Below are positions 15,882-45,452 of a stretch of 45,452 nt of DNA, piece by piece (position 1 is the stretch's first letter; the number at the start of each line of letters is the position of its first letter). The notes under the pieces are model-generated. The model did no database searches. It was not told the DNA's origin and saw only the letters and a list, made by a program, of their open reading frames with translations. The stretch lies in contig JAFGOO010000074.1 of NCBI GenBank assembly GCA_016926455.1, forward strand, positions 1-45,452, written 5' to 3'. The DNA is from Methanosarcinaceae archaeon. GTDB lineage: Archaea > Halobacteriota > Methanosarcinia > Methanosarcinales > Methanosarcinaceae. A program made the position numbers and the translations under genes.

Positions 15882-16077
15882 TTTTATTTAACCCCCATCA
15901 CATTTTCTTTACCAATCATGGTTAATACTTCTGATTGTACATAAAGTATAATCTTATGTGTTCGTGTAAATGCTCGTTTTTGCAGATTTGAGCCCCTGAG
16001 TGTGCCAGAATGTTAATATTTCCATATCTCTGGAAAATATGGGTGTTAACGAGCATTTTCTTGCTATGCTGTTGATT

Positions 16078-16290
16078 TCATCCGACTTTGTCATTGAGGG
16101 TGTCGAGTTTGAGTATGGAATATAGTGCACAATAGCCGGTAGCTCCAGTAACAAGCAGGATCAGTCCAAGCAATGCAATGATATATGTTGCCATACCTGT
16201 GGTTACAACTTGTGCTGCACCCACGTATAGGAGCACAAGTCCGAGGACGACCCGAACTGCCCTGTCAATTTTTCCTTCGTTCTTTTGCAT
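16078..16290 (-). CDS. DUF2892 (YgaP-like) small membrane protein
   Basis: 70 aa: KIDRAVRVVLGLVLL... followed by two TM helices and a conserved CALYS-like tail. Confidence 0.6.
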   Translation of the reverse strand: MQKNEGKIDRAVRVVLGLVLLYVGAAQVVTTGMATYIIALLGLILLVTGATGYCALYSILKLDTLNDKVG

Positions 16291-16313
16291 ATTTAAATCC
16301 TCTTTTATTTCAA

Positions 16314-16814
16314 TTAAAACTCATTGATGTGAAGCTTCTGGTCCAGAGGGATTCTTATTGGTTTTTCCGGTGATTCATCAGGATACCCAAGCGGAATGAC
16401 CGTTGCGACATCGTACCCGTCAGGAATCTTTAGAAGTGCTTTTATATTCTTACCATGGAACGTAAGTGTTACACCCCCAAGGCCCTCTGAAGTTAATGCA
16501 AGAAGTATATTCTCAATACATGCATAAGCCGAACCCAGCGCATCTTCAGCGAGTTCATTGTTGTAACATACTACTATCAACACCGGTGCAGTCTCAAGTG
16601 CCACTTTTTGGGGTGGGATTTTAATGCGCATCCCTGCAATCTCATCACGAAGCGTTTTATCTTTTACAAGGATGAACTCCCATGGCTCGCGATTAAATGC
16701 ATTTGGTGCTTGTGTACCGGCGCTTAAGATTTTATGGATGGTCGTATCAGGTACAGTGTCGGGTTTGAACTTCCTGATACTCTTTCGTTTCTCAATAGCT
16801 TCATATAAATCCAT
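16314..16814 (-). CDS. nitroreductase-family FMN oxidoreductase
   Basis: MDLYEAIEKRKSIRKF... is the classic nitroreductase N-terminus. The ORF opens at 16838, but ATG 16814 gives the canonical start. Confidence 0.85.
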   Translation of the reverse strand: MDLYEAIEKRKSIRKFKPDTVPDTTIHKILSAGTQAPNAFNREPWEFILVKDKTLRDEIAGMRIKIPPQKVALETAPVLIVVCYNNELAEDALGSAYACIENILLALTSEGLGGVTLTFHGKNIKALLKIPDGYDVATVIPLGYPDESPEKPIRIPLDQKLHINEF

Positions 16815-17197
16815 AATACCCCCCCAGAGGCTAGACAAAGAACCTATATCTTAATAGAATTATTTCATTTGCTATTTAAATACCTTTCTACCTTTATTTT
16901 TTCACAATATTTTAAATAATCTTAAGTGTGGACTTGAATTTGCTTTGCAATCGTACACATGAGATATCACCATTTATTAAGGCTGATTTGTACGAAAGGA
17001 AAATACAACTGTAAGTAGTGGCTAGTGAATTATTAAAATAATTGCTTCAGTTCTGAGTTTTTTGTAAATCGGTCTCAAACCCACTGATTTAGAAAGTCTT
17101 TTATAAAACAGCAAACATTCAGAGATGCAGATTTAAAATGATACTTAGGGATTTTGTAGTATACGGGATAATAGTTTTCAGATAAGAGGAATTATTC

Positions 17198-18301
17198 ATG
17201 GATAAAATCAAAATCGCAATTATAGGTCTTGGAAATTGTGCGAGTTCATTGATTCAAGGCATCGAGTATTACAAAAACAAAAAAGACAATGATGCGATCG
17301 GTTTGATGCACTGGGAAATCGGAGGCTATAAACCTAGTGATATTAAAGTTGTTGCTGCATTTGACATTGATGGGAGGAAAGTGGGGAAGGATGTATCAGA
17401 AGCGATGTTTGAACTCCCAAACTGCACAACAGTTTTTTACAAAGACATCCCAAAGACCGGAACCATTGTGAGAATGGGGAAAGTTCTAGATGGAATTGCA
17501 GACCATATGAAAGATTTCGATGATAAATACACCTTTGTTCTGGCAGACGAGACTGAACCCTCAAAAGAGGAGATAGTCAGCATACTGCAAGAATCGGGAG
17601 CAGAGATACTGTTGAATTATCTGCCCGTGGGTTCTGAGGATGCTACACGTTTTTATGCTGAATGTGCTCTTGAAGCTGGATTGGGATACATCAACAATAT
17701 GCCTGTTTTTATAGCGAGTGATCCGTATTGGTCTGTGAGATTCAAAGAAAAAGGCATTCCTATAGTTGGTGACGATATAAAGGCCCAGATTGGTGCTACA
17801 ATCACCCACAGGACGCTGGCTGACCTTTTCAGAAAAAGGGGGGTGAAATTGGAAAGGACGTACCAGATAAACACTGGAGGAAACACTGATTTCCTTAACA
17901 TGCTCAACAGAAACAGGCTTGTCTCAAAAAGGATTTCCAAGACAGAGGCAGTCCAGTCCGTTGCAGCCGAGAGGCTTGATGATGAAAATATCCATATTGG
18001 ACCCAGTGATTATGTTCCATGGCAAAAGGATAACAAGGTGTGTTTCTTAAGGATGGAAGGCAGGCTCTTCGGTGATGTGCCGATGAATATGGAACTGAGG
18101 TTATCTGTGGAAGATTCACCGAATTCCGCTGGCGTGGTCATCGATGCTGTCAGATGTTGCAAACTGGCACTTGATAGGGGAATAGGTGGAATTTTGACCT
18201 CACCCTCTGCATACTTCATGAAACATCCACCTAGACAGTACACAGATGACGATGCATGCAGGATGACCGATGAGTTCATCGCCGGCAAAAGAGATAGCTG
18301 A
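17198..18301 (+). CDS. ino1: myo-inositol-1-phosphate (inositol-3-phosphate) synthase, archaeal short type
   Basis: IAIIGLGNCASSLIQG Rossmann N-terminus, ...NTGGNTDF... and ...SKRISKT... motifs of the MIPS family; 367 aa. Confidence 0.88.
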   Translation: MDKIKIAIIGLGNCASSLIQGIEYYKNKKDNDAIGLMHWEIGGYKPSDIKVVAAFDIDGRKVGKDVSEAMFELPNCTTVFYKDIPKTGTIVRMGKVLDGIADHMKDFDDKYTFVLADETEPSKEEIVSILQESGAEILLNYLPVGSEDATRFYAECALEAGLGYINNMPVFIASDPYWSVRFKEKGIPIVGDDIKAQIGATITHRTLADLFRKRGVKLERTYQINTGGNTDFLNMLNRNRLVSKRISKTEAVQSVAAERLDDENIHIGPSDYVPWQKDNKVCFLRMEGRLFGDVPMNMELRLSVEDSPNSAGVVIDAVRCCKLALDRGIGGILTSPSAYFMKHPPRQYTDDDACRMTDEFIAGKRDS

Positions 18302-19130
18302 ATGTTCATCTCTTGATGTTCCAAATAGTGTTTTTGGGATTGATTTCAGTGGCGCAGAGAATGCCTACAAGAAGATCTGGGTCAGCAAAGGAACCATCAC
18401 CAGCAACATTCTGCACATTCATGAGTCACGACGAATAGCAGATTACATGCAGAAAGGAAACAAGCATGTAAGCCGGGATAAGTGTCTTATTATACTTAAA
18501 AAGCTTATCGCAGGTGAGCAACATGCAGCTTTTGGTCTCGATTTTCCTTTTTCGTTACCCACCTTGGTTTTGGACAATGAAGATTGGGATGCCTTTGTAA
18601 GGCAGTTCCCGGAAAGGTATAAGACACCAGAGCAGTTCCGTGAGTCCTGCCGCAATGCAACTCAGAACAAAGAGTTCAAAAGGCGTACGGAAAAGGAAAA
18701 CAAGGCACCATTCTGTGCTTATAACCTTTGGCTCTTTAAGCAGACCTATTTTGGAATCCGGGATGTTCTTCGCCCACTTGCAATCGGTAAAAAGGCCTGC
18801 ATCCTTCCAGTGCAATCGTGTGAAAAGGGAAAACCTTGGGTCCTTGAAATCTGTCCTGCATCTACACTAAAGCAGGAAGGTGTATACATTCCCTACAAAG
18901 GTAAAACGGAAGTAAAACAACAGTCTCGAAGCCAGATTCTTGAGTATCTGTCCACTAGAGGCGTTTTGGTATCTTCCGATGTGCTTGAAATTGCAATCGA
19001 AAACAGTGAAGGTGATGCACTGGACAGTGTTATTGCAGCGTTTGCCACCTATCGGGCACTACAGGAACCTGAAAAACTTACGACAACGCGTCCTGCTATC
19101 TATAAAAGAGAGGGGTATATTTTTGCTTAG
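18270..19130 (+). CDS. hypothetical protein, DUF429-like (predicted RNase H-fold)
   Basis: VFGIDFSG near the N-terminus, EICPASTLK and GDALDSVIAA resemble DUF429. The start overlaps the ino1 end by 32 nt, so the start is uncertain. Confidence 0.45.
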   Translation: MSSSPAKEIAECSSLDVPNSVFGIDFSGAENAYKKIWVSKGTITSNILHIHESRRIADYMQKGNKHVSRDKCLIILKKLIAGEQHAAFGLDFPFSLPTLVLDNEDWDAFVRQFPERYKTPEQFRESCRNATQNKEFKRRTEKENKAPFCAYNLWLFKQTYFGIRDVLRPLAIGKKACILPVQSCEKGKPWVLEICPASTLKQEGVYIPYKGKTEVKQQSRSQILEYLSTRGVLVSSDVLEIAIENSEGDALDSVIAAFATYRALQEPEKLTTTRPAIYKREGYIFA

Positions 19131-19213
19131 TATAAAAGGATAAAAAACTAACACATTAAAATCAAATACGCCGCCTGAACCCGTAAAAGTTTTCAAGCGG
19201 CTTGAACGTCCAC

Positions 19214-19759
19214 CTATCCCCGTTTTACCCCGACGATGTCATAGATATCTTCTGGTTTTTCCATGATCGTGATGTTCTCCATCTCTGCCAATTTTTCAGA
19301 ATTCGATACATCGATCTCGCGCATCTTGAGTATCATTTCCTTCCCCATAGGTGAATAAGTTTTGACCTTCCCACGCGTTTGGTCCACAGGGAGAATGTAG
19401 ATAGGTGTACTGCCTTTTGAGGTCTGGGCCACGGCATTGGTCACCAGTGTATCAGCGATACCGTGTACCATCTTTGCCACGGTGTTCGCTGTTGCTGGTG
19501 CAATTAAAAGCATATCATAATACCCCAGCTGGAGCGGTCCGGCAATAAAGGGTGAATTGGGACCAGCATCTATCTTGAAATTAGGGAAATCTCTCTGGAT
19601 GTCATCCCACATCCGGTACCATTTCATCACGGTTTCCCCTTCTTTTGACAAAAAGACCATGAAATCAATATCGGTTTTCTTCTTGATATCCACCATGACA
19701 TTATACGTCTCACGTATAAGGTCTCCTGAACCTGTAATTCCCCATGCTATGCGTTTCAA
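19214..19759 (-). CDS. afpA: archaeoflavoprotein AfpA-like FMN protein (HFCD superfamily)
   Basis: MKRIAWGITGSGD..., ...LLIAPATANTVAKMVHGIADTLVTNA motifs of the flavoprotein/HFCD fold; 181 aa. Confidence 0.75.
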   Translation of the reverse strand: MKRIAWGITGSGDLIRETYNVMVDIKKKTDIDFMVFLSKEGETVMKWYRMWDDIQRDFPNFKIDAGPNSPFIAGPLQLGYYDMLLIAPATANTVAKMVHGIADTLVTNAVAQTSKGSTPIYILPVDQTRGKVKTYSPMGKEMILKMREIDVSNSEKLAEMENITIMEKPEDIYDIVGVKRG

Positions 19760-19790
19760 TTTATTTCCTCCTCTGATTGTTTTTAACTAA

Positions 19791-20366
19791 TTAATAACTC
19801 CTACCCCAAAGTTCAAAGTATGCCCTCTCGTGCGCACATGCAGGACATTCCTCAGGTGCCTCTTCATCGTAATGAATATAGCCGCAGTTGCGGCATTTCC
19901 ACTTCATGACACTATTGCGCTTAAATACACTGTTCTTGTCGATATTCTCAATGAGTGCAAGGTATCGTTCTTCATGACCCTTCTCAGCGATTGCTATATT
20001 CCTGAAGACATATGCAATTTCTGAAAATCCTTCCTTTTCAGCAGTTTCTGCAAACTCTGGATACATCTGTGTATGTTCGTAGTTCTCACCCAAGGCTGAA
20101 GCTTCAAGATTAGATCTGGTATTACCTATTATGCCAGCAGGGAAGGATGCCGTGATCTGCAGCTCACCACCTTCGAGGAACTTAAAAAGCCTTTTAGCAT
20201 GTTCTTTCTCGTTATCCGCGGTCTCCAAGAATATACCAGCTATCTGTTCATATCCTGCCTTTTTTGCCTCAGATGCAAAATATGTGTAGCGGTTTCGGGC
20301 CTGTGACTCACCTGAAAATGCGGTTAAAAGGTTCTTTTCGGTTTGCGTTCCTTTCAATTTTTCCAT
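19791..20366 (-). CDS. rbr: rubrerythrin
   Basis: [21 protein letters not shown], two EEx2H diiron motifs and a C-terminal rubredoxin-like CRNCG...CPAC. Confidence 0.92.
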
Positions 20367-20417
20367 ATTTTTATTCTCCTATACTTATGATTCATTACAA
20401 AAACCTCTATTCCCTCA

Positions 20418-21128
20418 TCAATCTTGATACTCTGTAAAATATTCTTTTTTAATACGCTCCACTGGTATTCTAAAATCACTCATCAGTTGTACCATGACTT
20501 CCATAAGCCTTGGGGGACCGCATAGATAGAATACGCGTTCCCTGTAATCCGCTATCTCCCTTGCTATCAAGTTCTCGCAGATCCGCTCTCGGCAACCTTT
20601 CCATTCATCTCCTGCCCGTGTCAGTGTGTGCACAACTTTCAGGTTTTTGTTCTGCAATTGTAACTGCTCAAGTTCGTCCCTGAAAGCAATGTCTTTCTCG
20701 GTTTTATTACTGCTCACAAGAGTTACTTTGGTCCCGAGTTTTAGGTCAGTGCAGTACCTGCAGATACTTATCATTGGAGTAATCCCAATGCCTCCACTTA
20801 GAAGTGCTATTTTATTGTATTCCCCTTCAAAGGTCATCTGTCCATAAGGACCGTCAATACCCACTAAATCACCGGTGACCAAGACATCAAGAACATTGGA
20901 AAAATCATGTCCAGTAAACTTTTTCGTAAATTCTATATGGTCTTTTTTGGTCGGGCTGCTTGAGATGGTAAAAGGTTTGCGCATCTTTTCGTCCAAGACA
21001 TTAAGAGTGATGAACATGTATTGTCCAGCTTTATAATCAAAATCTACCGGTCTCTTAAACCTGAAACTTTTTACATCATGGGTCTGCTGTATGATTTCTG
21101 TGACAACTTCATCGAATTCCACAACCAA
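20418..21128 (-). CDS. FNR-like FAD/NAD(P)-binding oxidoreductase
   Basis: RKPFTISS (RxYS-type FAD motif), GGIGITPM NAD(P) motif and a LCGPP tail. TTG or GTG start. Confidence 0.78.
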   Translation of the reverse strand: MVVEFDEVVTEIIQQTHDVKSFRFKRPVDFDYKAGQYMFITLNVLDEKMRKPFTISSSPTKKDHIEFTKKFTGHDFSNVLDVLVTGDLVGIDGPYGQMTFEGEYNKIALLSGGIGITPMISICRYCTDLKLGTKVTLVSSNKTEKDIAFRDELEQLQLQNKNLKVVHTLTRAGDEWKGCRERICENLIAREIADYRERVFYLCGPPRLMEVMVQLMSDFRIPVERIKKEYFTEYQD

Positions 21129-35344: not shown

Positions 35345-35877
35345 TTTACGATAATTGGGGTGTAGGGGGTACGATTAATCCCATGACTAAAGTCATGGGA
35401 TTAATCGTACCCCCACCTATCATAGAATGTAACATAACAACTCGAAATTAGCTAAGTCTATTCACGATGCAGGATGGGCAAGGTTAATTCTGCATACTAT
35501 ATACAAAGCTGCTGAGAAGGGAAAGATCGTTTAAAAGGTTGATCCCAAAAACACTTCTCAGGTATGTTCAGTATGTGGTAAAAAGAAAAAAAGCAAACTT
35601 CAATTGTCAGATAGAATATTTGATTGTGAACATTGCAACACTTCATTAGACAGGGATGTTAATGTAGCAGTCAATATACTGAATAGATCTAAAAGATATC
35701 AAAGTACCATGAGGCTCTCGGGAACTAACGGCTCTGGAATTGGAACCTCTACAACCAGTTGTTTAACTGGGTTGCAAGTTCCGACAATGAATCAGCAATT
35801 GCGTAAAGCATTAGAAGATGAAACTCCTTTAGGGTTCAATAAAAGAACCCCACGACTTTAGTCGTGGGAGTAGTCAG
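35345..35877 (+). mobile_element. internally deleted IS200/IS605-family (IS1341/TnpB-only type) element remnant
   Basis: A left-end repeat with a 50-bp palindrome (35365-35414), a TnpB C-terminal fragment, and the right-end hairpin CCACGAC-TTTA-GTCGTGG followed by GAGTAGTCAG (35849-35877). Confidence 0.7.
35433..35861 (+). pseudogene. tnpB: tnpB (IS605 OrfB / RNA-guided nuclease family), C-terminal fragment with an in-frame stop
   Basis: Translation ...SIHDAGWARLILHTIYKAAEKGKIV*KVDPKNTSQVCSVCGKKKKS..LSDRIFDCEHCNTSLDRDVNVAVNIL. This is the RuvC-II / CxxC...CxxC zinc ribbon / RuvC-III (DRD.NAA.NI) region. TAA lies at 35532-35534, and roughly the N-terminal 250 aa are missing. Confidence 0.8.
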
Positions 35878-37611: not shown

Positions 37612-38445
37612 ATGCATAGGCCTTCAATACCCGCTGAAGTGAAGCAAATGACCTGGAGATTCATCGACACTGACAAAATAGATGGCTACTACAGTGCAGC
37701 TTTATTCGAATCAACCGCTAGGCATGTGGGGGCTGGCGAAGTTGATGAGACCATCCTTTTCTGGCGTGTAAAAAGTCCGGCCGTCTATCTTGGATACCAC
37801 CAGTACGTGGAAGATGAGATATGCGAAGATTATTGTACTGAAAATGGCATTCAGGTAATCCGCAGGGTGCTTGGTGGAGGGTGTGGATTCTGCGATGAGA
37901 ACCAGATTCTTTTTTCCATTATAGGATGTGAAGGAAGTGGTATAATCCCATCAAGCATAGAAGATGCGTATTCACATGTTCTTGGGGGGGTTACGACTGC
38001 ACTTGAATCCCTTGGTTTTGAAAGTGAATTCGAACCCACCCGCAGTTCTATTAATTCTAGAGGGCGCAAGATATCTGGAAATGCTCAGGGCAGGATCAAT
38101 GGGGCAGTACTAGTCAATGGTAGTTTACTGCTGGATTTTGATTTTGATGAGATGGACAGAGTGCTAAAAAACCCCACAAAGAACCTTACTTCTGGCGTGC
38201 AACATGCCCGGGATGGGATGATAACGCTCAAAGATTTACTTAATGGTGAAAATTATTATATCGATCATGTAAAAAAGATACTTAAAAGTGGATTTGAAAT
38301 TGTACTTGGTGTGGAAACGAAAAATGGTGTTCTTACAAAATCAGAAATCGAACTTTCCAACCATTTGGTTGAACGTCACCGCCGGAGTGAGTGGATATAC
38401 CGAATGGACAACAAAAGGAGAAAAAGACTGGAAAGCAAAAAATAA
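37612..38445 (+). CDS. lplA: lipoate-protein ligase, catalytic (LplA N-terminal / BPL_LplA_LipB) domain protein
   Basis: RRVLGGGCGFCD (RRxxGGGxVxxD motif) and GRKISGNAQ (catalytic Lys). ATG 37645 (MTWRFIDTD...) is an equally good start. Confidence 0.82.
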   Translation: MHRPSIPAEVKQMTWRFIDTDKIDGYYSAALFESTARHVGAGEVDETILFWRVKSPAVYLGYHQYVEDEICEDYCTENGIQVIRRVLGGGCGFCDENQILFSIIGCEGSGIIPSSIEDAYSHVLGGVTTALESLGFESEFEPTRSSINSRGRKISGNAQGRINGAVLVNGSLLLDFDFDEMDRVLKNPTKNLTSGVQHARDGMITLKDLLNGENYYIDHVKKILKSGFEIVLGVETKNGVLTKSEIELSNHLVERHRRSEWIYRMDNKRRKRLESKK

Positions 38446-38502: not shown

Positions 38503-38793
38503 ATGAGCTACGAAGGATACAAACAGGGAAAGCACAAATCAAAAGGCGGTCTTATCCGTTCTTTTGTCAAGTTAAAAGACAATACTATAGAAGACATCTC
38601 ATTTTCAGGGGATTTTTTCCTGTTCCCAGAATCTTCAATCGAACTGGTTATGGGGTCCTTAAAAGGAACCGTTGCCACGTATGATTCCGTACTTCATACT
38701 GTAAGGGTGGTATATGACTTTGAAGGAATAACTGCACCGGGCACCGCTCCAGAAGATTTTGCAATTTCCATCATGAAGGCAATAGAATCTTAA
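38503..38793 (+). CDS. lplB: lipoate-protein ligase accessory C-terminal-domain protein (LplB-like)
   Basis: 96 aa; KGGLIRSFVKLKDNTIEDISFSGDFF.FPE pattern of the LplA C-terminal domain as a stand-alone polypeptide, as in bipartite archaeal ligases. Confidence 0.7.
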   Translation: MSYEGYKQGKHKSKGGLIRSFVKLKDNTIEDISFSGDFFLFPESSIELVMGSLKGTVATYDSVLHTVRVVYDFEGITAPGTAPEDFAISIMKAIES

Positions 38794-38811: not shown

Positions 38812-39813
38812 ATGAATATGTGCCACTTAACCCCTGAAATGTTCACCCCAGACATCCACAAAAGGATGCTAAAAGCAAAACAAAAATCACTTGAAAATTA
38901 TGGCAAAAAACTGAATTTTTTCATTACATCAGACATCTTTCCTTCTGTATCCCTAACGGGCAGCCACTGCCAATTAAGTTGCAAGCATTGCGAAGGCAGG
39001 CTCCTCAAACGCCTGATACCTGCTACATCACCTGTAAAGTTTGAGAAGGTTGCACGCCAGCTTGCAAAAAACAGTGCCAGAGGATTGCTCATAACTGGCG
39101 GATGTGATGAGGCGGGAAAACTCCCGACTGTAAATTTTGCGGAGTCCATAAAAAGGATTAAACAGGAAACAGACCTCATCCTCATAGCTCATACTGGTTT
39201 CATTTCGCGTGGGGATGCATTTATTTTGAAAGATAGTGGTCTTGATGGCATCGCATTCGATGTGGTTGGGGACATTGAAACCGTCAACCGCGTTTACGGC
39301 TTAAAGGTCACCGAAAATGATTATTTGCAAAGCCTTCAGGCTATTTCAGAAGTCGGGATTAATGTCCTGCCACATGTCTGTGTGGGACTTGATTTCGGTA
39401 GTATCCGTGGAGAACTCAAGGCACTTGAAATTATTAGGCATATTAACCCTTCCACATTAATAATAACCGGCCTCATGCCAATTGTGGGCACGCCTATGTC
39501 AGCAGTCAGGCCAGATCCTCGTGATTTTGCAGAGGTGTTCTGCAGGGCGGCAGAATTGTTTCCTGAGGTTCAGATAACTCTTGGTTGCTCCCATTCCATT
39601 GGTCGTGATCGTGAGATGATAGAATTAATTGCACTGGAGAGTGGTGTTTTCAATATTGCAATCCCTACCTGCAATTTTGTAAAACATGCATTTTCGGAAG
39701 GGTATAAAGTAGAATATTTTGGCACCTGCTGCGGGGTACGGCCTACGGATTCTACTTGCATCGACTCAAATATATCCCATAACAGTGAATGGGTTTATGC
39801 TACTCTAAAATGA
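38812..39813 (+). CDS. radical SAM protein, LipS-type candidate lipoyl synthase component (paralogue A)
   Basis: VSLTGSHCQLSCKHCEG (CX3CX2C), GLLITGGCDE and PHVCVGLDFG. C-terminal CC motif (GTCCG). Alignable along its whole length with 40846-41829. Confidence 0.75.
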   Translation: MNMCHLTPEMFTPDIHKRMLKAKQKSLENYGKKLNFFITSDIFPSVSLTGSHCQLSCKHCEGRLLKRLIPATSPVKFEKVARQLAKNSARGLLITGGCDEAGKLPTVNFAESIKRIKQETDLILIAHTGFISRGDAFILKDSGLDGIAFDVVGDIETVNRVYGLKVTENDYLQSLQAISEVGINVLPHVCVGLDFGSIRGELKALEIIRHINPSTLIITGLMPIVGTPMSAVRPDPRDFAEVFCRAAELFPEVQITLGCSHSIGRDREMIELIALESGVFNIAIPTCNFVKHAFSEGYKVEYFGTCCGVRPTDSTCIDSNISHNSEWVYATLK

Positions 39814-39832
39814 ATTATTTTAACTCTCTGGT

Positions 39833-40846
39833 ATGATTCCCATGCAAACTGAACCATCCTGTAAAAAAGTTCGCGCATCTCTTGGTACGCTTGGGGTGCT
39901 TGGAATGGAATTCTTAATGATGGATGCACCTCCTACAACTGCGTATCTGCAGATATACACGGATAAACGCTGCATTGCAAACTGCCGTTTTTGCTCACAG
40001 GCTGGGGGAGGAGACGGCGATTTGAAGAAAATAGCACGTGGTATGTACATACCATCCGACTTCGATAACGTTGTGTTAAGACTTGGAATTGCATTTGAGC
40101 GTGGTTACCTTAAGAGGGCGTGCATCCAGACTGCAATGTATCCTGAGATGTGGGAGGATACCACACACCTTATCAAAAGCATTAGGGAACTAAGCCTAAT
40201 TCCGATTTCTGTATCCGTTTTCCCTCTGAGTGATGAAAAATATTCTACCTTAAAGGATTTAGGTGTTGATAAACTGGTGATTCCGCTTGATGCATGCAAC
40301 TGCAAACTGTTCAGTTTTATCAAGGGCAAGGAAGCCCACAGCATCTATGAATGGGATTCACACCTTGACGGGATTAAGCGTGCAACCCGGATATTAGGGA
40401 GGGGGTCGGTGGGTACACATCTAATTATCGGAATGGGGGAAAGTGCTGAAGATGCACTTGAATTGATAAGCAAACTGCATGGAGAAGGTGTTTACTCTGC
40501 TCTTTTTGCTTATACCCACCTTCCGGGAACTCGAAATATTCCTTCAAACCTGAATATTAAACACTACCGATCTGTTCAATTTGGTGCCTATTTGATTCGT
40601 GAGAACCTTGTATCCTTTGCAGACATGGCCTTCGTGTCCGGCGAAGTGGTGGATTTTGGAATTCCAGAGGTCGATATACAGAGCCTATTAAAAAGTGGCG
40701 AAGCATTCAAAACAACAGGTTGTCCAGACTGTAACCGTCCTTATGCCACAGAGACCCATCAGGAGATATTCAATTATCCCTGCGAACCTAATGAAAACGA
40801 AATCGGCGTCATCAGGGAGCAACTTGGGATCACTGGTGAGAAATAA
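39833..40846 (+). CDS. radical SAM protein, BioB/LipA-like fold (second LipS-type candidate)
   Basis: YTDKRCIANCRFCSQ (CX3CX2C), THLIIGMGES (BioB-like G.GET-type motif) and a C-terminal GCPDCN...C cysteine cluster. Confidence 0.75.
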   Translation: MIPMQTEPSCKKVRASLGTLGVLGMEFLMMDAPPTTAYLQIYTDKRCIANCRFCSQAGGGDGDLKKIARGMYIPSDFDNVVLRLGIAFERGYLKRACIQTAMYPEMWEDTTHLIKSIRELSLIPISVSVFPLSDEKYSTLKDLGVDKLVIPLDACNCKLFSFIKGKEAHSIYEWDSHLDGIKRATRILGRGSVGTHLIIGMGESAEDALELISKLHGEGVYSALFAYTHLPGTRNIPSNLNIKHYRSVQFGAYLIRENLVSFADMAFVSGEVVDFGIPEVDIQSLLKSGEAFKTTGCPDCNRPYATETHQEIFNYPCEPNENEIGVIREQLGITGEK

Positions 40847-41829
40847 TGAGCGAAATCGGAAGACGGTTGGAAAATGTGGATATGATCCGCAAGAGAGTAT
40901 TGGAGAAAATAGACGAACTGGATTTAAGTGAAACTACAAAGGAAGAGATGTCTAAATCCTTTAAATCCAGGCTAAATTCATTTTCAACTAATATTATTTT
41001 CTTTACTAAACCTTTCACTCCGGTTTCTGTTACAGGTACGGAGTGCGAACTGAATTGCAAACACTGTGAAAAAATCTACTTAAAACACATGCTTGATGGA
41101 AGCCACGGTAAACTCAGTGCTATTGCTCAAAATCTGGCTTTAAGAGGACATCGTGGAATCCTCCTGTCCGGTGGCAGCAAAACCGATGGGTCAGTTCCCA
41201 GTTATGAAGTTTCCGACGAGATTCGCCGAATCAAAGACGACACACACCTGCAAATAAGTGCCCACACCGGAATCGTAACAGAAGAACAGGCAAAACAGCT
41301 TTCTCCATGGCTTAACATGGCACTTGTTGACTGTATCGGAAGTGACGCCACGATCTCGGGTATACTGGGGCTTCCAAACACAGTTGATGATTATGACCGC
41401 ACACTCAGGTTCCTGACAGAAAACGGTGTTCCTATCGCACCACATATCATCGTGGGGTTAAACCATGGAAAGCTGGATGGCGAGTTCATTGCAATCGATA
41501 TGGTTAAAAAATATAATCCGAATGTTGTTGTGATTGTTATTTTCATTCCCACAAAGGGTACTAACTGCGCAGATGCTCATAATCCTTTAATAGAGGATGT
41601 TGCAAAAGTGATTATCCGGGCAAGGCAGGAGATGCCCGATATCCCCCTATCCTTGAGTTGTGTGCGTCCCGGAGGAAGGTATCGTTCGAGGCTTGATGAA
41701 TGTGCAATTCTCTGTGGTATCGACCGGATTGCAGTTCCGAGCCGAAGTGCCTATAATCTGTGCAAAGATGTAGGATTGAAAATTCATGAGGTTGATAAAT
41801 ATTGCTGTTCTTATGAGGTAATAGTGTGA
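40846..41829 (+). CDS. radical SAM protein, LipS-type candidate (paralogue B of 38812-39813)
   Basis: VSVTGTECELNCKHCEK, GILLSGGSKTDG and PHIIVGLNHG. C-terminal CC motif (KYCCS). The start overlaps the upstream stop (TAATG). Confidence 0.75.
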   Translation: MSEIGRRLENVDMIRKRVLEKIDELDLSETTKEEMSKSFKSRLNSFSTNIIFFTKPFTPVSVTGTECELNCKHCEKIYLKHMLDGSHGKLSAIAQNLALRGHRGILLSGGSKTDGSVPSYEVSDEIRRIKDDTHLQISAHTGIVTEEQAKQLSPWLNMALVDCIGSDATISGILGLPNTVDDYDRTLRFLTENGVPIAPHIIVGLNHGKLDGEFIAIDMVKKYNPNVVVIVIFIPTKGTNCADAHNPLIEDVAKVIIRARQEMPDIPLSLSCVRPGGRYRSRLDECAILCGIDRIAVPSRSAYNLCKDVGLKIHEVDKYCCSYEVIV

Positions 41830-42734
41830 AAATTGCGGCTTCATATAAGGATATAAAAATCATGGCACCAGATGATGCATCCTTTTCATTTTTCAAAAGT
41901 CCCTTTGCAGCGCATGATACAGGTAGTGCTGTAGACATTGCTTATGGTGATTTCGGTTCTATGGCAGTTTTACCGGTAGATGGAACAGTTGTTGATGTCA
42001 AAGAGTTCGATTCCCCAACTCCCTTTAAGGATCGTGATTTCAAGGAGTACATAACAGCAATCCTTTGTGGTGAGCTGCTTGTAAAGATACTGCATGTCAA
42101 ACCTGCTGTTAAGATTGGGGATTGCATTCGTGCTGGGGAATATTTTGGAACATTCATAAGAAGTGGTTACTATTATTTCTGGAATTTCCCACACTTGCAT
42201 GTTGAAGTCCGAAGGCCGGATGATTATTTGCGGGCGAGCAACAACATGGTGCTTGATGTGCCGGTTTGTGTCATTGAAAAATGTAATAATAAACCTGAAA
42301 ATCTCAGTGTTTTCGAATTTAAAGGCGAAGTTGTGTTTTCCAATAATATGTATGCACTCGTAGACTGCCCTGATTATAGCACTTTTGGTCTGGTCAATGG
42401 TTATTCTGTTAAAGGTTTCTTGCTTGATGGATTTATTCCAATAGGTGAACATGCGCTACAAAGATTTGGTTTAATAGGTACAAAACAAAATGTTCCGCCA
42501 TTTAAATATTTCAAGTCAATTGGCGATTCGTATCTGGTACACCCGTCAAGTGTGAATCTTAGAGTATTTGATGGAAATGACCAATTGTTAAAAGTTGCAG
42601 GAGCATCATTTATTTTAAGCTTTGGTAAACCTTTAATAAAATTAGTTCCTACACAACATGGCGCATGCCTTCCACAATGCGGTGAGAAGATTACCGTTAA
42701 AATTGCAAAACGTATACATTGCATGTTAAAGTAA
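41826..42734 (+). CDS. hypothetical cytoplasmic protein with an M23/LytM-like (duplicated hybrid motif) domain
   Basis: AAHDTGSAVDIAYG..G..V.PVDGTVVDV ... ILHVKPAVKIGDCIRAGEYFGT ... FPHLHVEVRR resembles the M23 H..D / HxH core. No signal peptide. GTGA overlap with the upstream gene. Confidence 0.45.
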   Translation: MKIAASYKDIKIMAPDDASFSFFKSPFAAHDTGSAVDIAYGDFGSMAVLPVDGTVVDVKEFDSPTPFKDRDFKEYITAILCGELLVKILHVKPAVKIGDCIRAGEYFGTFIRSGYYYFWNFPHLHVEVRRPDDYLRASNNMVLDVPVCVIEKCNNKPENLSVFEFKGEVVFSNNMYALVDCPDYSTFGLVNGYSVKGFLLDGFIPIGEHALQRFGLIGTKQNVPPFKYFKSIGDSYLVHPSSVNLRVFDGNDQLLKVAGASFILSFGKPLIKLVPTQHGACLPQCGEKITVKIAKRIHCMLK

Positions 42735-42753: not shown

Positions 42754-43179
42754 GTGAAAGTTGAAGATTTTGATTTCCCCGAAGATAGACTATATTTAAA
42801 AAATCATGTATGGGTCAAGCCTTATGGGGACATTATCCATATCGGTATCACGGAACTCGGGCAATCGCTTTCCAAAGGGATAGTACATATCGACCTACCA
42901 GATGTTGGTGATATTATCCACAAGGATGATTTTTTGGTCGCATACGAGACCATCAAGGCAGTATCACAGATATCACTTCCATTTGAGTGCACGGTTGTAA
43001 GCGTCAATGATGACCTATGGGATGACCCAAATATCATAAATAACGATCCTTATAATATCTATATGGTGGAAGTAAAAGGGGATTATGAGAACAGCGGCTT
43101 GATGGGTGTCGTGGAAGCTGTTGCGTACTATGGGGATTTGATCGCAAAAGAGAGAGAACGTTACGAAGGATACGAATGA
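42754..43179 (+). CDS. GcvH-like lipoyl-carrier protein, divergent paralogue 1
   Basis: LYLKNHVWVK...GIT..G, the acceptor-lysine motif YETIKAVSQISLP and NNDPYN.YMVEV. GTG start after GAGGCG. Confidence 0.75.
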   Translation: MKVEDFDFPEDRLYLKNHVWVKPYGDIIHIGITELGQSLSKGIVHIDLPDVGDIIHKDDFLVAYETIKAVSQISLPFECTVVSVNDDLWDDPNIINNDPYNIYMVEVKGDYENSGLMGVVEAVAYYGDLIAKERERYEGYE

Positions 43180-43212: not shown

Positions 43213-43632
43213 ATGGAAATAGAAGGATATGAACTACCTGATGAGCTGTATTATACCCAGGATCATGTATGGGCAAGGGTGGAGGATGACGGAAACGTCA
43301 GAGTAGGAATGAATTCATACGGTGCTGTTGCTGCAGGAACAATCGAATTTATTGACTTACCAGCGGTAGATGACGAATTTGAAGCAGGCGAAGCATTCGG
43401 GTCATTGGAATCTGCAAAGTGGGTAGGTGGACTTACCATGCCTGTCAGCGGTAAAATCATTGAAGTAAATGAAGATATTGAAGACGACCTTGAACTGATT
43501 GCAGAAGAGCCGTATGGAGATGGCTGGTTGGTTTTGATCGAGCCGTCCAAACTGGATGAAGACCTTGAAAAACTCATCCATGGTGGTGCAATTAAACCAT
43601 GGTTTGAGGAAGATCTTGCATCAAGAGAGTAA
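43213..43632 (+). CDS. GcvH-like lipoyl-carrier protein, paralogue 2
   Basis: YYTQDHVWARVEDDG, the acceptor-lysine motif SLESAKWVGGLTMPVSGKIIEVN and EEPYGDGWLV. Strong RBS TAGGAGGAG. Confidence 0.8.
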   Translation: MEIEGYELPDELYYTQDHVWARVEDDGNVRVGMNSYGAVAAGTIEFIDLPAVDDEFEAGEAFGSLESAKWVGGLTMPVSGKIIEVNEDIEDDLELIAEEPYGDGWLVLIEPSKLDEDLEKLIHGGAIKPWFEEDLASRE

Positions 43633-43652: not shown

Positions 43653-43694
43653 GTCTTTGCAGTGAGATTTATCCCAGCAAAGACTACTTTTTTT
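43653..43694 (+). terminator. hairpin plus T-tract between convergent genes
   Basis: GTCTTTGC (43653-43660) pairs with GCAAAGAC (43677-43684) and is followed by T7 at 43688-43694. Confidence 0.4.
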
Positions 43695-44439
43695 ATATCC
43701 TGTAGTTCCATTTATCTGATTTATATTTAGGCAAAAGTTCCTGTGCTGTCTGTTCTTCAGCTTTGCTAGGTTTTGAATCCACTAGTTGTACACCAAAACG
43801 TTCCTCGAATTTTTGCCGAATCACTCCTCTCACCTTTTCCATTTCCACTTTCTCAGGGAGTTCTTTATCCATCCATGTCATTCCTTCTTCGATAGAGACA
43901 ACCTGTTTATCGCTTATCTTCTCAAGCGGGATATTTGAGAGACTAAGCATTTCCTTTATATCAAAATCTAAAAGTAGTGTACCATGCTGCAGAAGTTTGC
44001 CGTTCCACCTTGTCTGTGCATTGCCTGAGATTTTCCTGCCGTCAACAATGACATCGTTTATAGGTCTAAAATCAGCATTCAATCCATACTCGTACAGTGT
44101 ATCTATTAGCATGCCGCATATCTGGTGGTATGAATCCGTGACATCAAGCGGAAACAGTTTATCATCTATCGTACCAATGACGCCGTAGTTGACCTGACGC
44201 CCCCGATCATCCGAGAATGCAAGTCCTCCACCACTTATGCGCCGTACGATTGTGTAATCCTTGCATCGCTTAAGGTTCAGTTCCACATCTGCCTTCTGAA
44301 AATATCCAAGGATAATGGATTTGGTGGGATCCCAGAATATCAAGGTGTTTCCCTCATCGTTTTTCAGGATAGATTCGTTCATTGCCATCATGTACCTGAT
44401 GTCAACCTTTCCAAAATCGATTACTCGCCATTCATCCAT
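43693..44439 (-). CDS. second lipoate/octanoate-protein ligase-like protein (catalytic domain only)
   Basis: RRISGGGLAFSD and DGRKISGNAQ motifs. No partner C-terminal-domain gene next to it. The track ORF starts at TTG 44481; ATG 44439 (MDEWRVIDFG) is preferred. Confidence 0.78.
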   Translation of the reverse strand: MDEWRVIDFGKVDIRYMMAMNESILKNDEGNTLIFWDPTKSIILGYFQKADVELNLKRCKDYTIVRRISGGGLAFSDDRGRQVNYGVIGTIDDKLFPLDVTDSYHQICGMLIDTLYEYGLNADFRPINDVIVDGRKISGNAQTRWNGKLLQHGTLLLDFDIKEMLSLSNIPLEKISDKQVVSIEEGMTWMDKELPEKVEMEKVRGVIRQKFEERFGVQLVDSKPSKAEEQTAQELLPKYKSDKWNYRI

Positions 44440-44527
44440 TTGATCACTTTTGAAATAGCAGGTATGTTTTAACTTCGACAAATATTGAGACCGAAATAAG
44501 AGTCTATAATTTTGTATTATTATTATA

Positions 44528-45394
44528 TTATTTCATCTTGCGTATTGCGAACTCACATGCCTTCGATAGTGGATCATATGCTTCAGCTACAGCAGGACAG
44601 TATGCAAGTTCCGTACTGTAGAGGTCGTGCAGGTCCATTCCAGCTTTGATTGCAAGAGATATCAGATTTACCCGCGCAGCTGCGCCTTCTTCGCCGATTG
44701 CCTGACCACCTATTATTTTTCCGGTTTTTGCATCTGCCAGTATCTTAACGGTAATTTCCTTGGCACCCGGATACTATTCAGGTCTGGTGAACCCGCTTGC
44801 TTTTCCGATGACGACTTCATATCCTGCGGATTTTGCAAAGAACTGATTGAAACCGGTTGCTGAAACTTCTATTTTACCTATGACCGAAACAAAGGTTGTC
44901 AGGGAACCCCCAAATGTATCATAACCACCAGCAGCGTTAGTTCCTGCTGTGATCTCCTGGCGGTAGGCAGTGGTCGAAAGCTGTGACATCCATGGCATGT
45001 GGTTTATTGGACTTACGGTCTCAACACAATCACCGATTGCATAAATTCCTGGAATACTTGTTTCCGTCTTTGCATTGGTCATAATTCCCCAGTTTCCAAG
45101 TTTGCATCCCGCATCCTTTGCTAGATCCCAGTTAGCGCGAACACCGGATGCCATAATCACCATATCCGCCGGAAGAATTTCACCGTTTACGGTTACAGAC
45201 GTGACTTTATTATCACCAGAAATATTCTCTAATGAGGCGCCCATCATTAATTTGATACCCGTTTCCTTAAGACTCTTTTCAAGAATCCTTGCAATATCTG
45301 GATCAATTGATTTCGGGAAGGAGTGTGGTAGCATTTCAACCAGCGTCACATCAATGTTTTTTGCTTTAACCCAACTTTGACAGTTTTCTCTCCT
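44528..45394 (-). pseudogene. pyridine nucleotide-disulfide oxidoreductase (NADH oxidase / CoA-disulfide reductase family), interrupted by an in-frame TAG and lacking a recognisable N-terminal part
   Basis: ...VTLVEMLP..., GIYAIGDCVE, then RPE-TAG(44774-44776)-YPGAKEITVKIL...AYCP...DP (intact dimerisation domain) to TAA 44528-44530 in the same frame. Upstream, the same frame hits TAA at 45395-45397 and no GxGxxG is seen. Confidence 0.5.
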
Positions 45395-45452
45395 TTATGA
45401 AAAGAATGTCTTCTCTTTAGGCCAGAATTTTTCATTTTTTTGTCAGGAAATC

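What the first reader, a model, noticed from the sequence alone, without database searches (positions are those of the whole stretch)
38812..41829. Three radical-SAM genes where the known archaeal lipoyl synthase needs two: a paralogous pair flanking a BioB-like enzyme
Seen in sequence: ORFs 38812-39813 and 40846-41829 align end to end. Examples are VS(L/V)TG(S/T)xC(Q/E)LxCKHCE, G(L/I)L(I/L)(T/S)GG, IAHTG/SAHTG, PH(V/I)x(V)GL, and a C-terminal Cys-Cys dipeptide in both. The middle ORF 39833-40846 is a different lineage (CIANCRFC, a BioB-like GMGES motif, a C-terminal CPDC...C cluster). The last three genes of the block overlap (TAATG, GTGA), which implies coupled translation and fixed stoichiometry. 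Inference: the duplicated enzyme may give specificity for the two divergent carriers. Alternatively it may perform an additional C-H functionalisation, such as a third sulfur insertion, methylation or a different carbon position, which would yield a cofactor that is not plain lipoate.
Basis: partly seen in the sequence, partly recalled or inferred. Interest (0 to 1): 0.72.

Follow-up and report, generated by a model that had tools for sequence, protein, structure and literature searches.

The report
Three-enzyme archaeal lipoyl synthase gene cluster
A methane-oxidising archaeon carries one LipS2 and two anciently diverged LipS1 sulfur-inserting enzymes in a single operon, where the known archaeal lipoate pathway needs only one of each; the same trio recurs in several archaeal phyla, so the extra enzyme is kept for a purpose that nobody has yet tested.

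Summary
ORFs 38812-39813 (LipS1a) and 40846-41829 (LipS1b) are full-length paralogues (32% identity, E=6e-49). Both belong to the LipS1 family. ORF 39833-40846 is a LipS2.

All three keep every Fe-S ligand mapped experimentally in the Thermococcus kodakarensis enzymes. Both LipS1 copies are under purifying selection (dN/dS 0.20-0.29), so neither is a decaying duplicate.

The trio is not peculiar to this genome. LipS1a-LipS2-LipS1b clusters occur in ANME-2, Bathyarchaeia, Hecatellales and Hydrothermarchaeota. In Methanoperedenaceae the same genes are present but scattered.

In these clusters the ligase (LplA1; LplA2 with LplB), the LipS1 enzyme and the GcvH-like carrier each form two old lineages. 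LipS2 is single in every locus examined. An uncharacterised protein with an M23/LytM-like domain (DUF8155) overlaps the LipS1b stop codon.

My best reading, at moderate confidence, is two parallel lipoylation tracks that share LipS2. A different chemical product from LipS1a is not excluded. I found no paper describing this arrangement. I rate it a new variant of the known LipS1/LipS2 system.

The parts
37612..38445 (+). LplA1: lipoate/octanoate-protein ligase or transferase, catalytic domain only (277 aa)
   Evidence: Pfam LplA-B_cat, E=8e-38. It carries the catalytic-lysine motif GRKISGNAQ. It belongs to a clade of catalytic-domain-only proteins that always lies just upstream of LipS1a.
38503..38793 (+). 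LplB: small subunit (C-terminal domain) of a split lipoate-protein ligase (96 aa)
   Evidence: NCBIfam LplB scores 64.4 bits against a cut-off of 65. Pfam Lip_prot_lig_C also hits. In Bathyarchaeia this domain is fused to the LplA2-type protein.
38812..39813 (+). LipS1a: divergent LipS1-type radical-SAM sulfur insertase (333 aa)
   Evidence: NCBIfam LipS1 scores 214.2 bits, below the cut-off of 230, matching model positions 1-268. It is 35% identical to T. kodakarensis LipS1. It keeps C53/C57/C60, H188, C259 and C306/C307. Its clade has 87/100 bootstrap support. dN/dS is 0.26-0.28.
39833..40846 (+). LipS2: radical-SAM enzyme expected to insert sulfur at C8 (337 aa)
   Evidence: NCBIfam LipS2 scores 269.1 bits against a cut-off of 270. 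It is 33% identical to T. kodakarensis LipS2, E=8e-50. Cysteines C47/C51/C54, C97 and C297/C300 align with Tk C39/C43/C46, C85 and C276/C279.
40846..41829 (+). LipS1b: canonical-type LipS1 radical-SAM sulfur insertase (327 aa)
   Evidence: NCBIfam LipS1 scores 248.4 bits, above the cut-off of 230. It is 40% identical to T. kodakarensis LipS1, E=6e-62. It keeps C67/C71/C74, H200, C272 and C320/C321. dN/dS is 0.20-0.29. Its start overlaps the LipS2 stop (TAATG).
41826..42734 (+). DUF8155 protein: N-terminal M23/LytM-like domain plus a C-terminal beta-rich domain of unknown fold (302 aa, GTG start)
   Evidence: Homologues carry PF26482, and some also PF01551. The AlphaFold2 model has pLDDT 87.5. 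Foldseek matches LytM, lysostaphin, LytU and EnvC LytM domains with probability 1.00. H30, D37, H90, H125 and E127 are invariant. The C-terminal domain has no PDB match. The start overlaps the LipS1b stop (GTGA), and the same overlap occurs in Methanoperedens.
42754..43179 (+). GcvH1: type-1 GcvH-like lipoyl carrier (141 aa), lipoyl-lysine motif YETIKAV
   Evidence: Pfam GCV_H, E=4e-23. It forms a clade with the in-cluster carriers of Bathyarchaeia and Hecatellales. The lysine is conserved in every member.
43213..43632 (+). GcvH2: type-2 GcvH-like lipoyl carrier (139 aa), lipoyl-lysine motif LESAKWVGG
   Evidence: Pfam GCV_H, E=1e-32. It is 28% identical to GcvH1. It forms a clade with the Methanoperedens carriers near LipS1a and with the upstream carriers of Bathyarchaeia.
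43693..44481 (-). LplA2: second lipoate-protein ligase catalytic subunit (262 aa as listed, TTG start; orthologues are 248 aa)
   Evidence: Pfam LplA-B_cat, E=3.5e-42. It carries the motif GRKISGNAQ. Its clade is fused to the LplB domain in Bathyarchaeia and Hecatellales. dN/dS is 0.13.
44528..45452 (-). Nox/CoA-disulfide-reductase-type flavoprotein gene upstream of LplA2, disrupted in this window and running off its end
   Evidence: Pfam Pyr_redox_2. An in-frame TAG at 44774-44776 sits where the intact 449-aa orthologue in L008 has Trp, and there is a frame break near 45350. A similar gene follows the cluster in Hydrothermarchaeota L068.

Best explanation
The three genes encode one LipS2-type and two LipS1-type radical-SAM sulfur insertases. 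They sit in an operon of eight co-oriented genes, LplA1-LplB-LipS1a-LipS2-LipS1b-DUF8155-GcvH1-GcvH2. LplA2 and a flavoprotein disulfide reductase gene converge on it from the opposite strand.

The block is one instance of a conserved archaeal lipoylation module. In it the ligase, the LipS1 enzyme and the GcvH-like carrier each exist as two ancient lineages, while LipS2 is single.

Proposed mechanism, all steps inferred:
1. The carriers are octanoylated. LplA2 with LplB acts as the ATP-dependent ligase. LplA1, which has only the catalytic domain, acts as a second ligase or an acyl transferase.
2. The shared LipS2 puts sulfur on C8 of both octanoyl-lysines.
3. Sulfur insertion at C6 is split between the paralogues. 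LipS1b, the canonical type that is translationally coupled to DUF8155, serves type-1 carriers (motif ETIKAV). LipS1a, always next to LplA1, serves type-2 carriers (motif ES(A/I)K(W/Y)).
4. The lipoylated carriers then act as dithiol/disulfide shuttles for the Hdr-like or flavoprotein disulfide reductases encoded next to the cluster in related genomes.

Shown here: gene identities, ligand conservation, purifying selection, wide conservation of the trio, and the paired phylogenies. Inferred: which enzyme serves which carrier, and the chemistry.
For: - Family assignment: LipS1 at 214 and 248 bits, LipS2 at 269 bits.
- Identity to the characterised T. kodakarensis enzymes is 35%, 40% and 33%.
- Every mapped ligand is conserved: TkLipS1 C27/31/34, H159, C230, C276/277 and TkLipS2 C39/43/46, C85, C276/279 (PMC9585515). 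This holds in the window proteins and in 74 LipS1a-type plus 26 LipS1b-type sequences.
- dN/dS is 0.20-0.29 for both paralogues against two orthologous loci.
- All three genes occur together in 24 loci: 15 ANME-2/Methanosarcinales, 6 Bathyarchaeia, 1 Hecatellales, 2 Hydrothermarchaeota.
- Each LipS1 clade spans these phyla, with bootstrap 87 (a) and 66 (b) out of 100.
- The carrier tree splits into two cross-phylum types, with the lysine conserved throughout.
- The ligase tree likewise splits into LplA1 and LplA2 clades.
- Adjacency: LplA1-(LplB)-LipS1a in every cluster; GcvH1-type-LipS1b-LplA2 in Bathyarchaeia and Hecatellales; LipS1b-DUF8155 overlapping in ANME-2c and Methanoperedens; a GcvH2-type gene 1.2-3 kb from the otherwise solitary LipS1a in three Methanoperedens loci.
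- Redox partners nearby: HdrA/C/B-like genes in Bathyarchaeia L061, HdrB/HdrA/FlpD-like genes in L006, and Nox/CoADR-type genes in L008, L068 and the window.
Against: - Pairing of enzyme to carrier rests only on gene neighbourhood. That neighbourhood is partly inconsistent: LipS1a-LipS2 is the most conserved adjacency, yet in Methanoperedens LipS2 lies near LipS1b.
- The LipS1a-GcvH2 proximity is seen in only 3 of about 45 Methanoperedenaceae loci.
- If carriers need separate LipS1 enzymes, it is unclear why one LipS2 suffices.
- In bacteria one lipS1-slpl(AB)-lipT-lipS2 set modifies three different LbpA carriers, including two from another species (PMC10332631).
- Some clusters (L064, L065, L068) show one or no carrier gene in the DNA available.
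- Trees are neighbour-joining only, and the relationship between the a and b clades is unresolved (a+b sister in 6/100 bootstraps).
- No lipoate-dependent enzyme was identified in the window.
Confidence: 0.42

Rival explanations
1. LipS1a performs different chemistry from LipS1b. It might insert sulfur at another carbon, add a third sulfur, or act on a different acyl chain. One carrier type would then bear a cofactor that is not plain lipoate.
For: LipS1a forms a separate clade kept alongside a canonical LipS1 in several phyla. It has fixed differences beside the auxiliary-cluster ligand: C-A-(H/R)-S instead of C-(V/M)-R-P. It also has L64 for the Tyr found in all 26 LipS1b-type sequences and TkLipS1, and M222 for Ile. 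It scores below the LipS1 model cut-off. A single LipS1 serves several carriers in bacteria (PMC10332631), so carrier number alone need not explain the duplicate.
Against: LipS1a has the same ligand set and overall architecture as LipS1, aligned end to end. L64, M222 and A260 also occur in many other LipS1-family representatives, and so do C98 and C190. Nothing in the sequence points to a new reaction. No extra sulfur-handling or methyl-donor domain is present.
Confidence: 0.17
2. LipS1a and LipS1b work together on the same substrate. They might form a hetero-oligomer, or one might act mainly as a sacrificial donor or regenerator of the other's auxiliary cluster.
For: The two are co-transcribed and co-inherited in most lineages. 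LipS-type enzymes destroy their auxiliary cluster during turnover (PMC9585515). BioB-like enzymes are dimers (general knowledge).
Against: Both keep a complete radical-SAM site and all auxiliary ligands, which is unlike typical catalytic/non-catalytic pairs. In Methanoperedenaceae the two genes are unlinked. The parallel duplication of carriers and ligases would be left unexplained.
Confidence: 0.1
3. LipS1a has a substrate outside the GcvH-like carriers, such as another protein or an acyl group. Its cluster position reflects shared cofactor or sulfur supply rather than a shared target.
For: In roughly 45 Methanoperedenaceae and GoM-Arc1 loci, LipS1a sits alone among unrelated housekeeping genes (replication factor C-like, CBS-domain and HMG-CoA reductase genes). 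LipS2 and LipS1b-DUF8155 lie elsewhere, next to TusA and a sulfite-reductase-like gene.
Against: In every other lineage LipS1a lies between a ligase gene and LipS2. Three Methanoperedens loci have a GcvH2-type gene within 1.2-3 kb.
Confidence: 0.1
4. The two LipS1 enzymes are redundant isoenzymes with the same substrate and product, kept for different conditions.
For: They share the same ligands and family.
Against: They are in one operon in most lineages, so they are not separately regulated. They are only 32% identical and have been retained across phyla with clade-specific fixed residues. That pattern is not expected for simple redundancy.
Confidence: 0.08
5. One paralogue is a decaying duplicate.
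For: LipS1a falls below the curated LipS1 cut-off.
Against: The ORF is intact, all ligands are invariant in 74 sequences, dN/dS is 0.26-0.28, and orthologues occur in several phyla.
Confidence: 0.01

Closest known systems
LipS1/LipS2 two-protein lipoyl synthase of Thermococcus kodakarensis (TK2109/TK2248; PMC9585515)
   Same: The protein families are the same, at 33-40% identity. The CX3CX2C motif and the mapped auxiliary [4Fe-4S] ligands match: LipS1 C230/C276/C277/H159 and LipS2 C85/C276/C279. In the known system LipS2 thiolates C8 first and LipS1 then thiolates C6.
   Different: Here two LipS1-type genes, 32% identical to each other, flank one LipS2 in a single operon. An M23-like DUF8155 gene is coupled to LipS1b. 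In T. kodakarensis the two genes are single-copy and unlinked.
sLpl(AB)-LipS1/LipS2(-LipT) lipoate assembly linked to sHdr-LbpA in sulfur oxidisers (PMC6067878, PMC10332631)
   Same: The gene cluster combines ligase, LipS1, LipS2 and GcvH-like single-domain carriers, often two of them. Related loci show the same association with Hdr-like genes (L061, L006), and L006 has a LipT-like GGR_cat gene.
   Different: The bacterial system has one LipS1, one fused ligase and no DUF8155. It belongs to aerobic or facultative sulfur oxidisers. Here the hosts are strict anaerobes (ANME-2, Bathyarchaeia, Hydrothermarchaeota), no DsrE or TusA gene was seen in the window, and the ligases score far below the LplAB and LplA_large model cut-offs.
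Biotin synthase BioB
   Same: It has the same radical-SAM TIM-barrel sulfur-insertase architecture and is the nearest solved structure (8vdw, 1r30).
   Different: The TIGR00433 score is only 30-38 bits against a cut-off of 225. The auxiliary ligand pattern differs. The genomic context is lipoylation, not biotin synthesis.
M23/LytM metallopeptidase domains (LytM, lysostaphin, EnvC)
   Same: The N-terminal roughly 130 residues of DUF8155 adopt this fold. They keep His/Asp/His positions and an HVEVR motif that resembles the PHLHFE motif of M23 enzymes.
   Different: DUF8155 is in a lipoylation operon, not a cell-wall one. The motif spacing is Hx6D rather than HxxxD. The first His of HxH is lost in Methanoperedens and ANME-2a homologues. 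An extra C-terminal domain has no known fold. Pfam M23 is sub-threshold for the window protein (E=0.012).

Membership tests
LipS1 family lipoyl synthase (NCBIfam NF053742) | Whole-protein score at or above the curated cut-off of 230 bits | tested here: met
   Result for LipS1b (40846-41829): 248.4 bits over model positions 5-268.
LipS1 family lipoyl synthase (NCBIfam NF053742) | Whole-protein score at or above the curated cut-off of 230 bits (tested for LipS1a) | tested here: not met
   LipS1a (38812-39813) scores 214.2 bits, although it aligns over the whole model, positions 1-268. I therefore call it LipS1-type or LipS1-like, not an equivalog.
LipS1 family lipoyl synthase | CX3CX2C radical-SAM motif plus auxiliary [4Fe-4S] ligands equivalent to TkLipS1 C230, C276, C277 and H159 (PMC9585515) | tested here: met
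   LipS1a has C53/57/60, H188, C259 and C306/307. LipS1b has C67/71/74, H200, C272 and C320/321. In the a clade (74 sequences) all are invariant. In the b clade (26 sequences) the radical-SAM Cys, His and C272 are invariant and the Cys-Cys pair is present in 96%.
LipS1 family lipoyl synthase | Catalyses sulfur insertion at C6 of 8-mercapto-octanoyl-lysine | not testable with these tools
   This needs an enzyme assay.
LipS2 family lipoyl synthase (NCBIfam NF053743) | Score at or above the cut-off of 270 bits | tested here: inconclusive
   269.1 bits over model positions 1-292, which is 0.9 bit below the cut-off.
LipS2 family lipoyl synthase | CX3CX2C motif plus auxiliary ligands equivalent to TkLipS2 C85, C276 and C279 | tested here: met
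   C47/51/54, C97 (ACIQT against RICLQT) and C297/C300 (GCPDCNRPY against GCPGCNRPY) in the BLASTP alignment, 33% identity, E=8e-50.
Classical lipoyl synthase LipA | N-terminal CX4CX5C motif and C-terminal RSSY motif | tested here: not met
   A regular-expression scan finds neither motif in any of the three proteins.
Biotin synthase BioB (TIGR00433) | Score at or above the cut-off of 225 bits | tested here: not met
   30.2, 37.8 and 31.0 bits.
sHdr-LbpA sulfur-oxidation system | GcvH-like carriers and their maturation genes linked to shdr (HdrA/B/C-like) genes and to sulfur transferases (DsrE, TusA, rhodanese) | tested here: inconclusive
   No Hdr-like or sulfur-transferase gene appears among the window ORFs scanned. 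HdrA/C/B-like genes do adjoin the cluster in Bathyarchaeia L061, and HdrB/HdrA-like genes in L006. TusA and a sulfite-reductase-like gene lie between LipS2 and LipS1b in Methanoperedens L083.
Peptidase M23 (for DUF8155) | M23 fold with HxxxD and HxH zinc/catalytic motifs | tested here: inconclusive
   The fold is matched. Pfam M23 gives E=0.012, below threshold. H30/D37 spacing is Hx6D. H125 is invariant, but the preceding His of HxH (H123) is not conserved across the family.

The most novel reading that the evidence does not exclude
LipS1a is a radical-SAM sulfur insertase with a regiochemistry or product different from canonical LipS1. Type-2 GcvH-like carriers of ANME-2, Methanoperedens and Bathyarchaeia would then carry a thiolated acyl cofactor that is not lipoate, used with Hdr-like or flavoprotein disulfide reductases in anaerobic alkane- and methane-metabolising archaea.
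Probability: 0.15. Interest if true: 0.9.

Novelty: new variant of a known kind. Interest (0 to 1): 0.6.

Why it matters
Lipoate assembly by LipS1/LipS2 was only recently worked out, and it is described as a two-enzyme system. The large phylogenomic survey excluded genomes with more than one LipS1 or LipS2 copy from its LipS1/LipS2 phylogeny (PMC10332631).

This analysis shows a conserved three-enzyme version with paired ligases, paired carriers and an uncharacterised M23-like partner. It occurs in environmentally important anaerobes: ANME-2, Methanoperedens, GoM-Arc1, Bathyarchaeia and Hydrothermarchaeota. The papers I checked do not discuss lipoylated proteins in these organisms.

The finding yields a small set of proteins for a direct test. 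Does the extra LipS1 give carrier specificity or a new cofactor? What are lipoyl carriers for in methane-oxidising archaea?

Tried and rejected
- Extra cysteines in LipS1a. C98 and C190 looked like signs of a different auxiliary cluster. I rejected this as diagnostic because both positions are Cys in many other LipS1-family representatives.
- BioB ligand mapping. Mapping C98 and C190 onto BioB [2Fe-2S] ligands by profile alignment to 1r30 and 8vdw failed. The alignment puts BioB C97 and C188 a few residues away, so no equivalence can be claimed.
- Solved structures. No LipS1 or LipS2 structure exists in the PDB copy.
- Recent tandem duplication. The idea that LipS1a and LipS1b are sisters got only 6/100 bootstrap support. 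Each is closer to TkLipS1 than to the other.
- Charge complementarity between the LipS1 paralogues and the carriers was uninformative.
- The exact-sequence lookup of the window LipS1a found no record.
- The DUF8155 C-terminal domain, modelled separately (pLDDT 87.2), has no significant PDB match.
- Literature searches for DUF8155 and for lipoate in ANME found nothing relevant. Two ANME/Hdr comparative papers contain no term beginning 'lipo' and no mention of GcvH.
- Genes interrupting the cluster in L006, L009 and L012 are unrelated (PIN domain, methyltransferase, unknowns). They are not additional pathway members.


Full report
**Observation**

- ORF 38812-39813 (LipS1a here) and ORF 40846-41829 (LipS1b) align over 293 residues at 32% identity, E=6e-49.
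- LipS1a against the middle ORF 39833-40846 gives only E=0.017.
- All quoted motifs are present.
- Each protein has one CX3CX2C motif. None has the CX4CX5C or RSSY motifs of classical LipA.
- The overlaps TAATG (40844-40848) and GTGA (41826-41829) are real.

**What the genes are**

NCBIfam places the outer genes in the LipS1 family and the middle gene in LipS2.

| Gene | Model | Score (bits) | Cut-off |
|---|---|---|---|
| LipS1a | LipS1 | 214.2 | 230 |
| LipS1b | LipS1 | 248.4 | 230 |
| middle ORF | LipS2 | 269.1 | 270 |
| all three | BioB | 30-38 | 225 |

I took the T. kodakarensis LipS1 and LipS2 sequences from the supplement of PMC9585515. I corrected the machine-read protein text against the DNA given there. 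The corrected sequences reproduce the paper's cysteine numbering.
- LipS1b is 40% identical to TkLipS1.
- LipS1a is 35% identical to TkLipS1.
- The middle protein is 33% identical to TkLipS2.

That paper maps the ligands. For LipS1 they are C27/31/34 for the radical-SAM cluster, and C230, C276, C277 and probably H159 for the auxiliary [4Fe-4S] cluster. For LipS2 the auxiliary ligands are C85, C276 and C279. It also shows that LipS2 thiolates C8 first and LipS1 then thiolates C6. All these residues are present in the window proteins.

**The surrounding block**

The genes belong to a co-oriented run with gaps of 57 nt or less:
- LplA1 (37612-38445)
- LplB (38503-38793)
- LipS1a, LipS2, LipS1b
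- a 302-aa protein (41826-42734)
- GcvH-like carrier 1 (42754-43179)
- GcvH-like carrier 2 (43213-43632)

A second ligase subunit, LplA2 (43693-44481), and a Nox/CoADR-type flavoprotein gene lie on the opposite strand.

The rest of the window holds chromosomal housekeeping genes. These include NrpR, glutamine synthetase, Cdc6/Orc1 and class I lysyl-tRNA synthetase. That content fits a methanogen or ANME relative. The closest loci are Methanosarcinales metagenome-assembled genomes, and the next closest are Candidatus Methanogaster (ANME-2c).

**Neither paralogue is decaying**

- Against two orthologous loci (L007, L008), dN/dS is 0.26-0.28 for LipS1a and 0.20-0.29 for LipS1b. The rest of the operon gives 0.09-0.26.
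- All ligand positions are invariant in 74 LipS1a-type sequences and invariant or 96% conserved in 26 LipS1b-type sequences taken from related loci.

**Distribution**

A scan of one genome per GTDB species with a LipS1a profile returned 76 loci. Labelling their ORFs with the nine window proteins shows all three radical-SAM genes together in 24 loci:
- 15 from ANME-2a/b/c-type Methanosarcinales
- 6 from Bathyarchaeia
- 1 from Hecatellales
- 2 from Hydrothermarchaeota

In about 45 Methanoperedenaceae and GoM-Arc1 loci LipS1a stands alone among unrelated genes. LipS2 and an overlapping LipS1b-DUF8155 pair lie elsewhere in those genomes, separated by TusA, sulfite-reductase-like, ornithine-cyclodeaminase-like and ferredoxin genes. 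One Methanoperedenaceae locus (L047) has LipS1a and LipS1b-DUF8155 within 10 kb.

**Phylogeny**

Neighbour-joining trees put all LipS1a-type sequences in one cross-phylum clade (87/100 bootstraps). The cluster-encoded LipS1b sequences form another (66/100). The two clades have broadly parallel internal branching.

Whether a and b are sisters is unresolved (6/100). By pairwise identity each is closer to TkLipS1 than to the other. The duplication, or the merger of two lineages, is therefore old.

Residues fixed in the a clade and different in the b clade and TkLipS1 are L64 (Tyr), C98, C190, M222 (Ile), A260 and S262 (Pro). Among 131 family representatives from an exhaustive HMMER search, Cys at positions 98 and 190, and L/M/A at 64/222/260, are common. 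Only Ser262 is nearly specific to the a clade. I see no sequence feature that demands new chemistry.

**Carriers and ligases are also paired**

The carrier tree splits into two cross-phylum types.
- Type 1 has the motif (Y/F)ETIKAV. It includes window GcvH1 and the in-cluster carriers of Bathyarchaeia and Hecatellales.
- Type 2 has the motif ES(A/I/T)K(W/Y). It includes window GcvH2, a carrier about 5 kb upstream in Bathyarchaeia, and carriers 1.2-3 kb from LipS1a in three Methanoperedens loci.
- The modifiable lysine is conserved in all members.

The ligase tree splits likewise.
- LplA1 has only the catalytic domain and always lies just upstream of LipS1a.
- LplA2 is fused to the LplB domain in Bathyarchaeia and Hecatellales. 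It is adjacent to LplB in Hydrothermarchaeota and ANME-2a.

The Bathyarchaeia gene order is LplA1-LipS1a-LipS2-DUF8155-GcvH(type 1)-LipS1b-LplA2(AB).

Ligase, LipS1 and carrier thus each come in two old lineages, while LipS2 is single in every locus. This is the basis for my preferred two-track model with a shared LipS2.

**DUF8155**

- Homologues carry PF26482, and some also carry Peptidase_M23.
- The window protein has a sub-threshold M23 hit (E=0.012).
- An AlphaFold2 model (pLDDT 87.5) matches LytM, lysostaphin, LytU and EnvC LytM domains over the N-terminal roughly 130 residues.
- H30, D37, H90, H125 and E127 are invariant. The first His of the HxH motif is present here but lost in Methanoperedens and ANME-2a homologues.
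- The C-terminal domain, modelled alone (pLDDT 87.2), has no PDB match.
- Its role is unknown: a zinc amidase acting on acyl-lysine, or a non-catalytic adaptor for LipS1b.
- It is absent from three clusters that still hold all three radical-SAM genes (L064, L065, L068), so it is not required for the trio as such.

**Likely use of the carriers**

- In Bathyarchaeia L061 the cluster is followed by HdrA-, HdrC- and HdrB-like genes.
- L006 has HdrB-, HdrA- and FlpD-like genes and a LipT-like GGR_cat gene upstream.
- In L008 and the window, a Nox/CoADR-type flavoprotein gene lies just upstream of LplA2 on the opposite strand. In Hydrothermarchaeota L068 a pyridine-nucleotide disulfide oxidoreductase gene follows LipS1b on the opposite strand.

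This resembles the sHdr-LbpA arrangement of sulfur oxidisers (PMC6067878, PMC10332631) and suggests a dithiol/disulfide shuttle role. That role is inference.

**Against the two-track model**

- The enzyme-carrier pairing is by neighbourhood only and is not fully consistent.
- A single bacterial LipS1/LipS2 set modifies three different LbpA carriers.
- The model does not explain why LipS2 is not duplicated.
- I therefore give it 0.42. Rivals are: different chemistry by LipS1a (0.17), a LipS1a/LipS1b complex or sacrificial partner (0.10), a non-carrier substrate for LipS1a (0.10), redundancy (0.08) and decay (0.01).

**Novelty**

The searchable literature describes two radical-SAM proteins per system. 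The phylogenomic survey used only assemblies with one copy each of LipS1 and LipS2 for its trees. Searches for DUF8155 and for lipoate in ANME found nothing, and two ANME/Hdr comparative papers do not mention lipoate or GcvH.

I rate this a new variant of a known kind. It is interesting mainly because it is conserved, occurs in ecologically important anaerobes, and can be tested directly.

Noticed in passing
window 10865-12154: This is an AT-rich intergenic region (GC 0.30 against 0.40-0.47 elsewhere) just upstream of a Cdc6/Orc1 gene (12155-13390). ORB-like repeats TTTCCAGTTGAAAT lie at 11766 and 11805, with an inverted copy at 11599-11618, flanking an A/T stretch. It is a likely chromosomal replication origin.
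   Followed up: partly
window 44528-45452 (- strand): The Nox/CoA-disulfide-reductase-type gene upstream of LplA2 is disrupted. An in-frame TAG at 44774-44776 replaces the Trp codon of the intact 449-aa orthologue in L008 (6011-7360), and the frame breaks near 45350. It could be a pseudogene, an assembly error or amber read-through. I did not resolve which.
   Followed up: partly
window 35604-35861: An 85-aa ORF between the NrpR and glutamine synthetase genes matches only the C-terminal zinc-finger (TNB) domain of TnpB/Cas12f-like proteins (E=9e-6). It is probably a remnant of an IS200/IS605-type element.
   Followed up: partly
L083 5011-10828 (Methanoperedens, 3.3-Mb contig): LipS2 and the overlapping LipS1b-DUF8155 pair are divergently arranged. 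Between them lie a ferredoxin, an ornithine-cyclodeaminase/mu-crystallin-like gene, TusA and a 480-aa sulfite/nitrite-reductase-like gene. This may be a dedicated sulfur supply for the sulfur insertases.
   Followed up: partly
L020 11696-12526 and L046 6215-7048: In two Methanoperedens loci the type-2 GcvH-like gene lies tail to tail with a Prok-JAB (JAMM metalloprotease-like) gene. With the M23-like DUF8155, this is a second zinc-hydrolase-like protein next to a lipoyl carrier.
   Followed up: no
L061 15706-20509 (Bathyarchaeia): Directly after the lipoylation cluster come a 232-aa protein with no Pfam hit, a DUF6951 protein, and HdrA-like (677 aa), HdrC-like and HdrB-like (CCG) genes. This resembles an Hdr-like complex linked to a lipoyl carrier, as in sulfur oxidisers, but in an anaerobic archaeon.
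   Followed up: partly
L006 6892-9643: This ANME-2-type locus has a LipT-like GGR_cat flavoprotein gene before LplA1. It also has an extra 269-aa gene with no Pfam hit between LplA1 and LplB. A gap of similar size between LplA1 and LplB in L011 and L014 suggests the same gene is present there. The window lacks it.
   Followed up: no
window 14180-21128: This is a run of oxygen- and oxidant-defence genes: a flavodiiron protein (metallo-beta-lactamase plus flavodoxin domains), two rubrerythrin-family genes, a nitroreductase, a flavoprotein and an FNR-like reductase.
   Followed up: no
L079 (Bathyarchaeota chromosome OY970340.1) 9092-15649: The whole lipoylation cluster appears as many short ORF fragments. 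This is more consistent with indel errors in the assembly than with a real pseudogene array.
   Followed up: no
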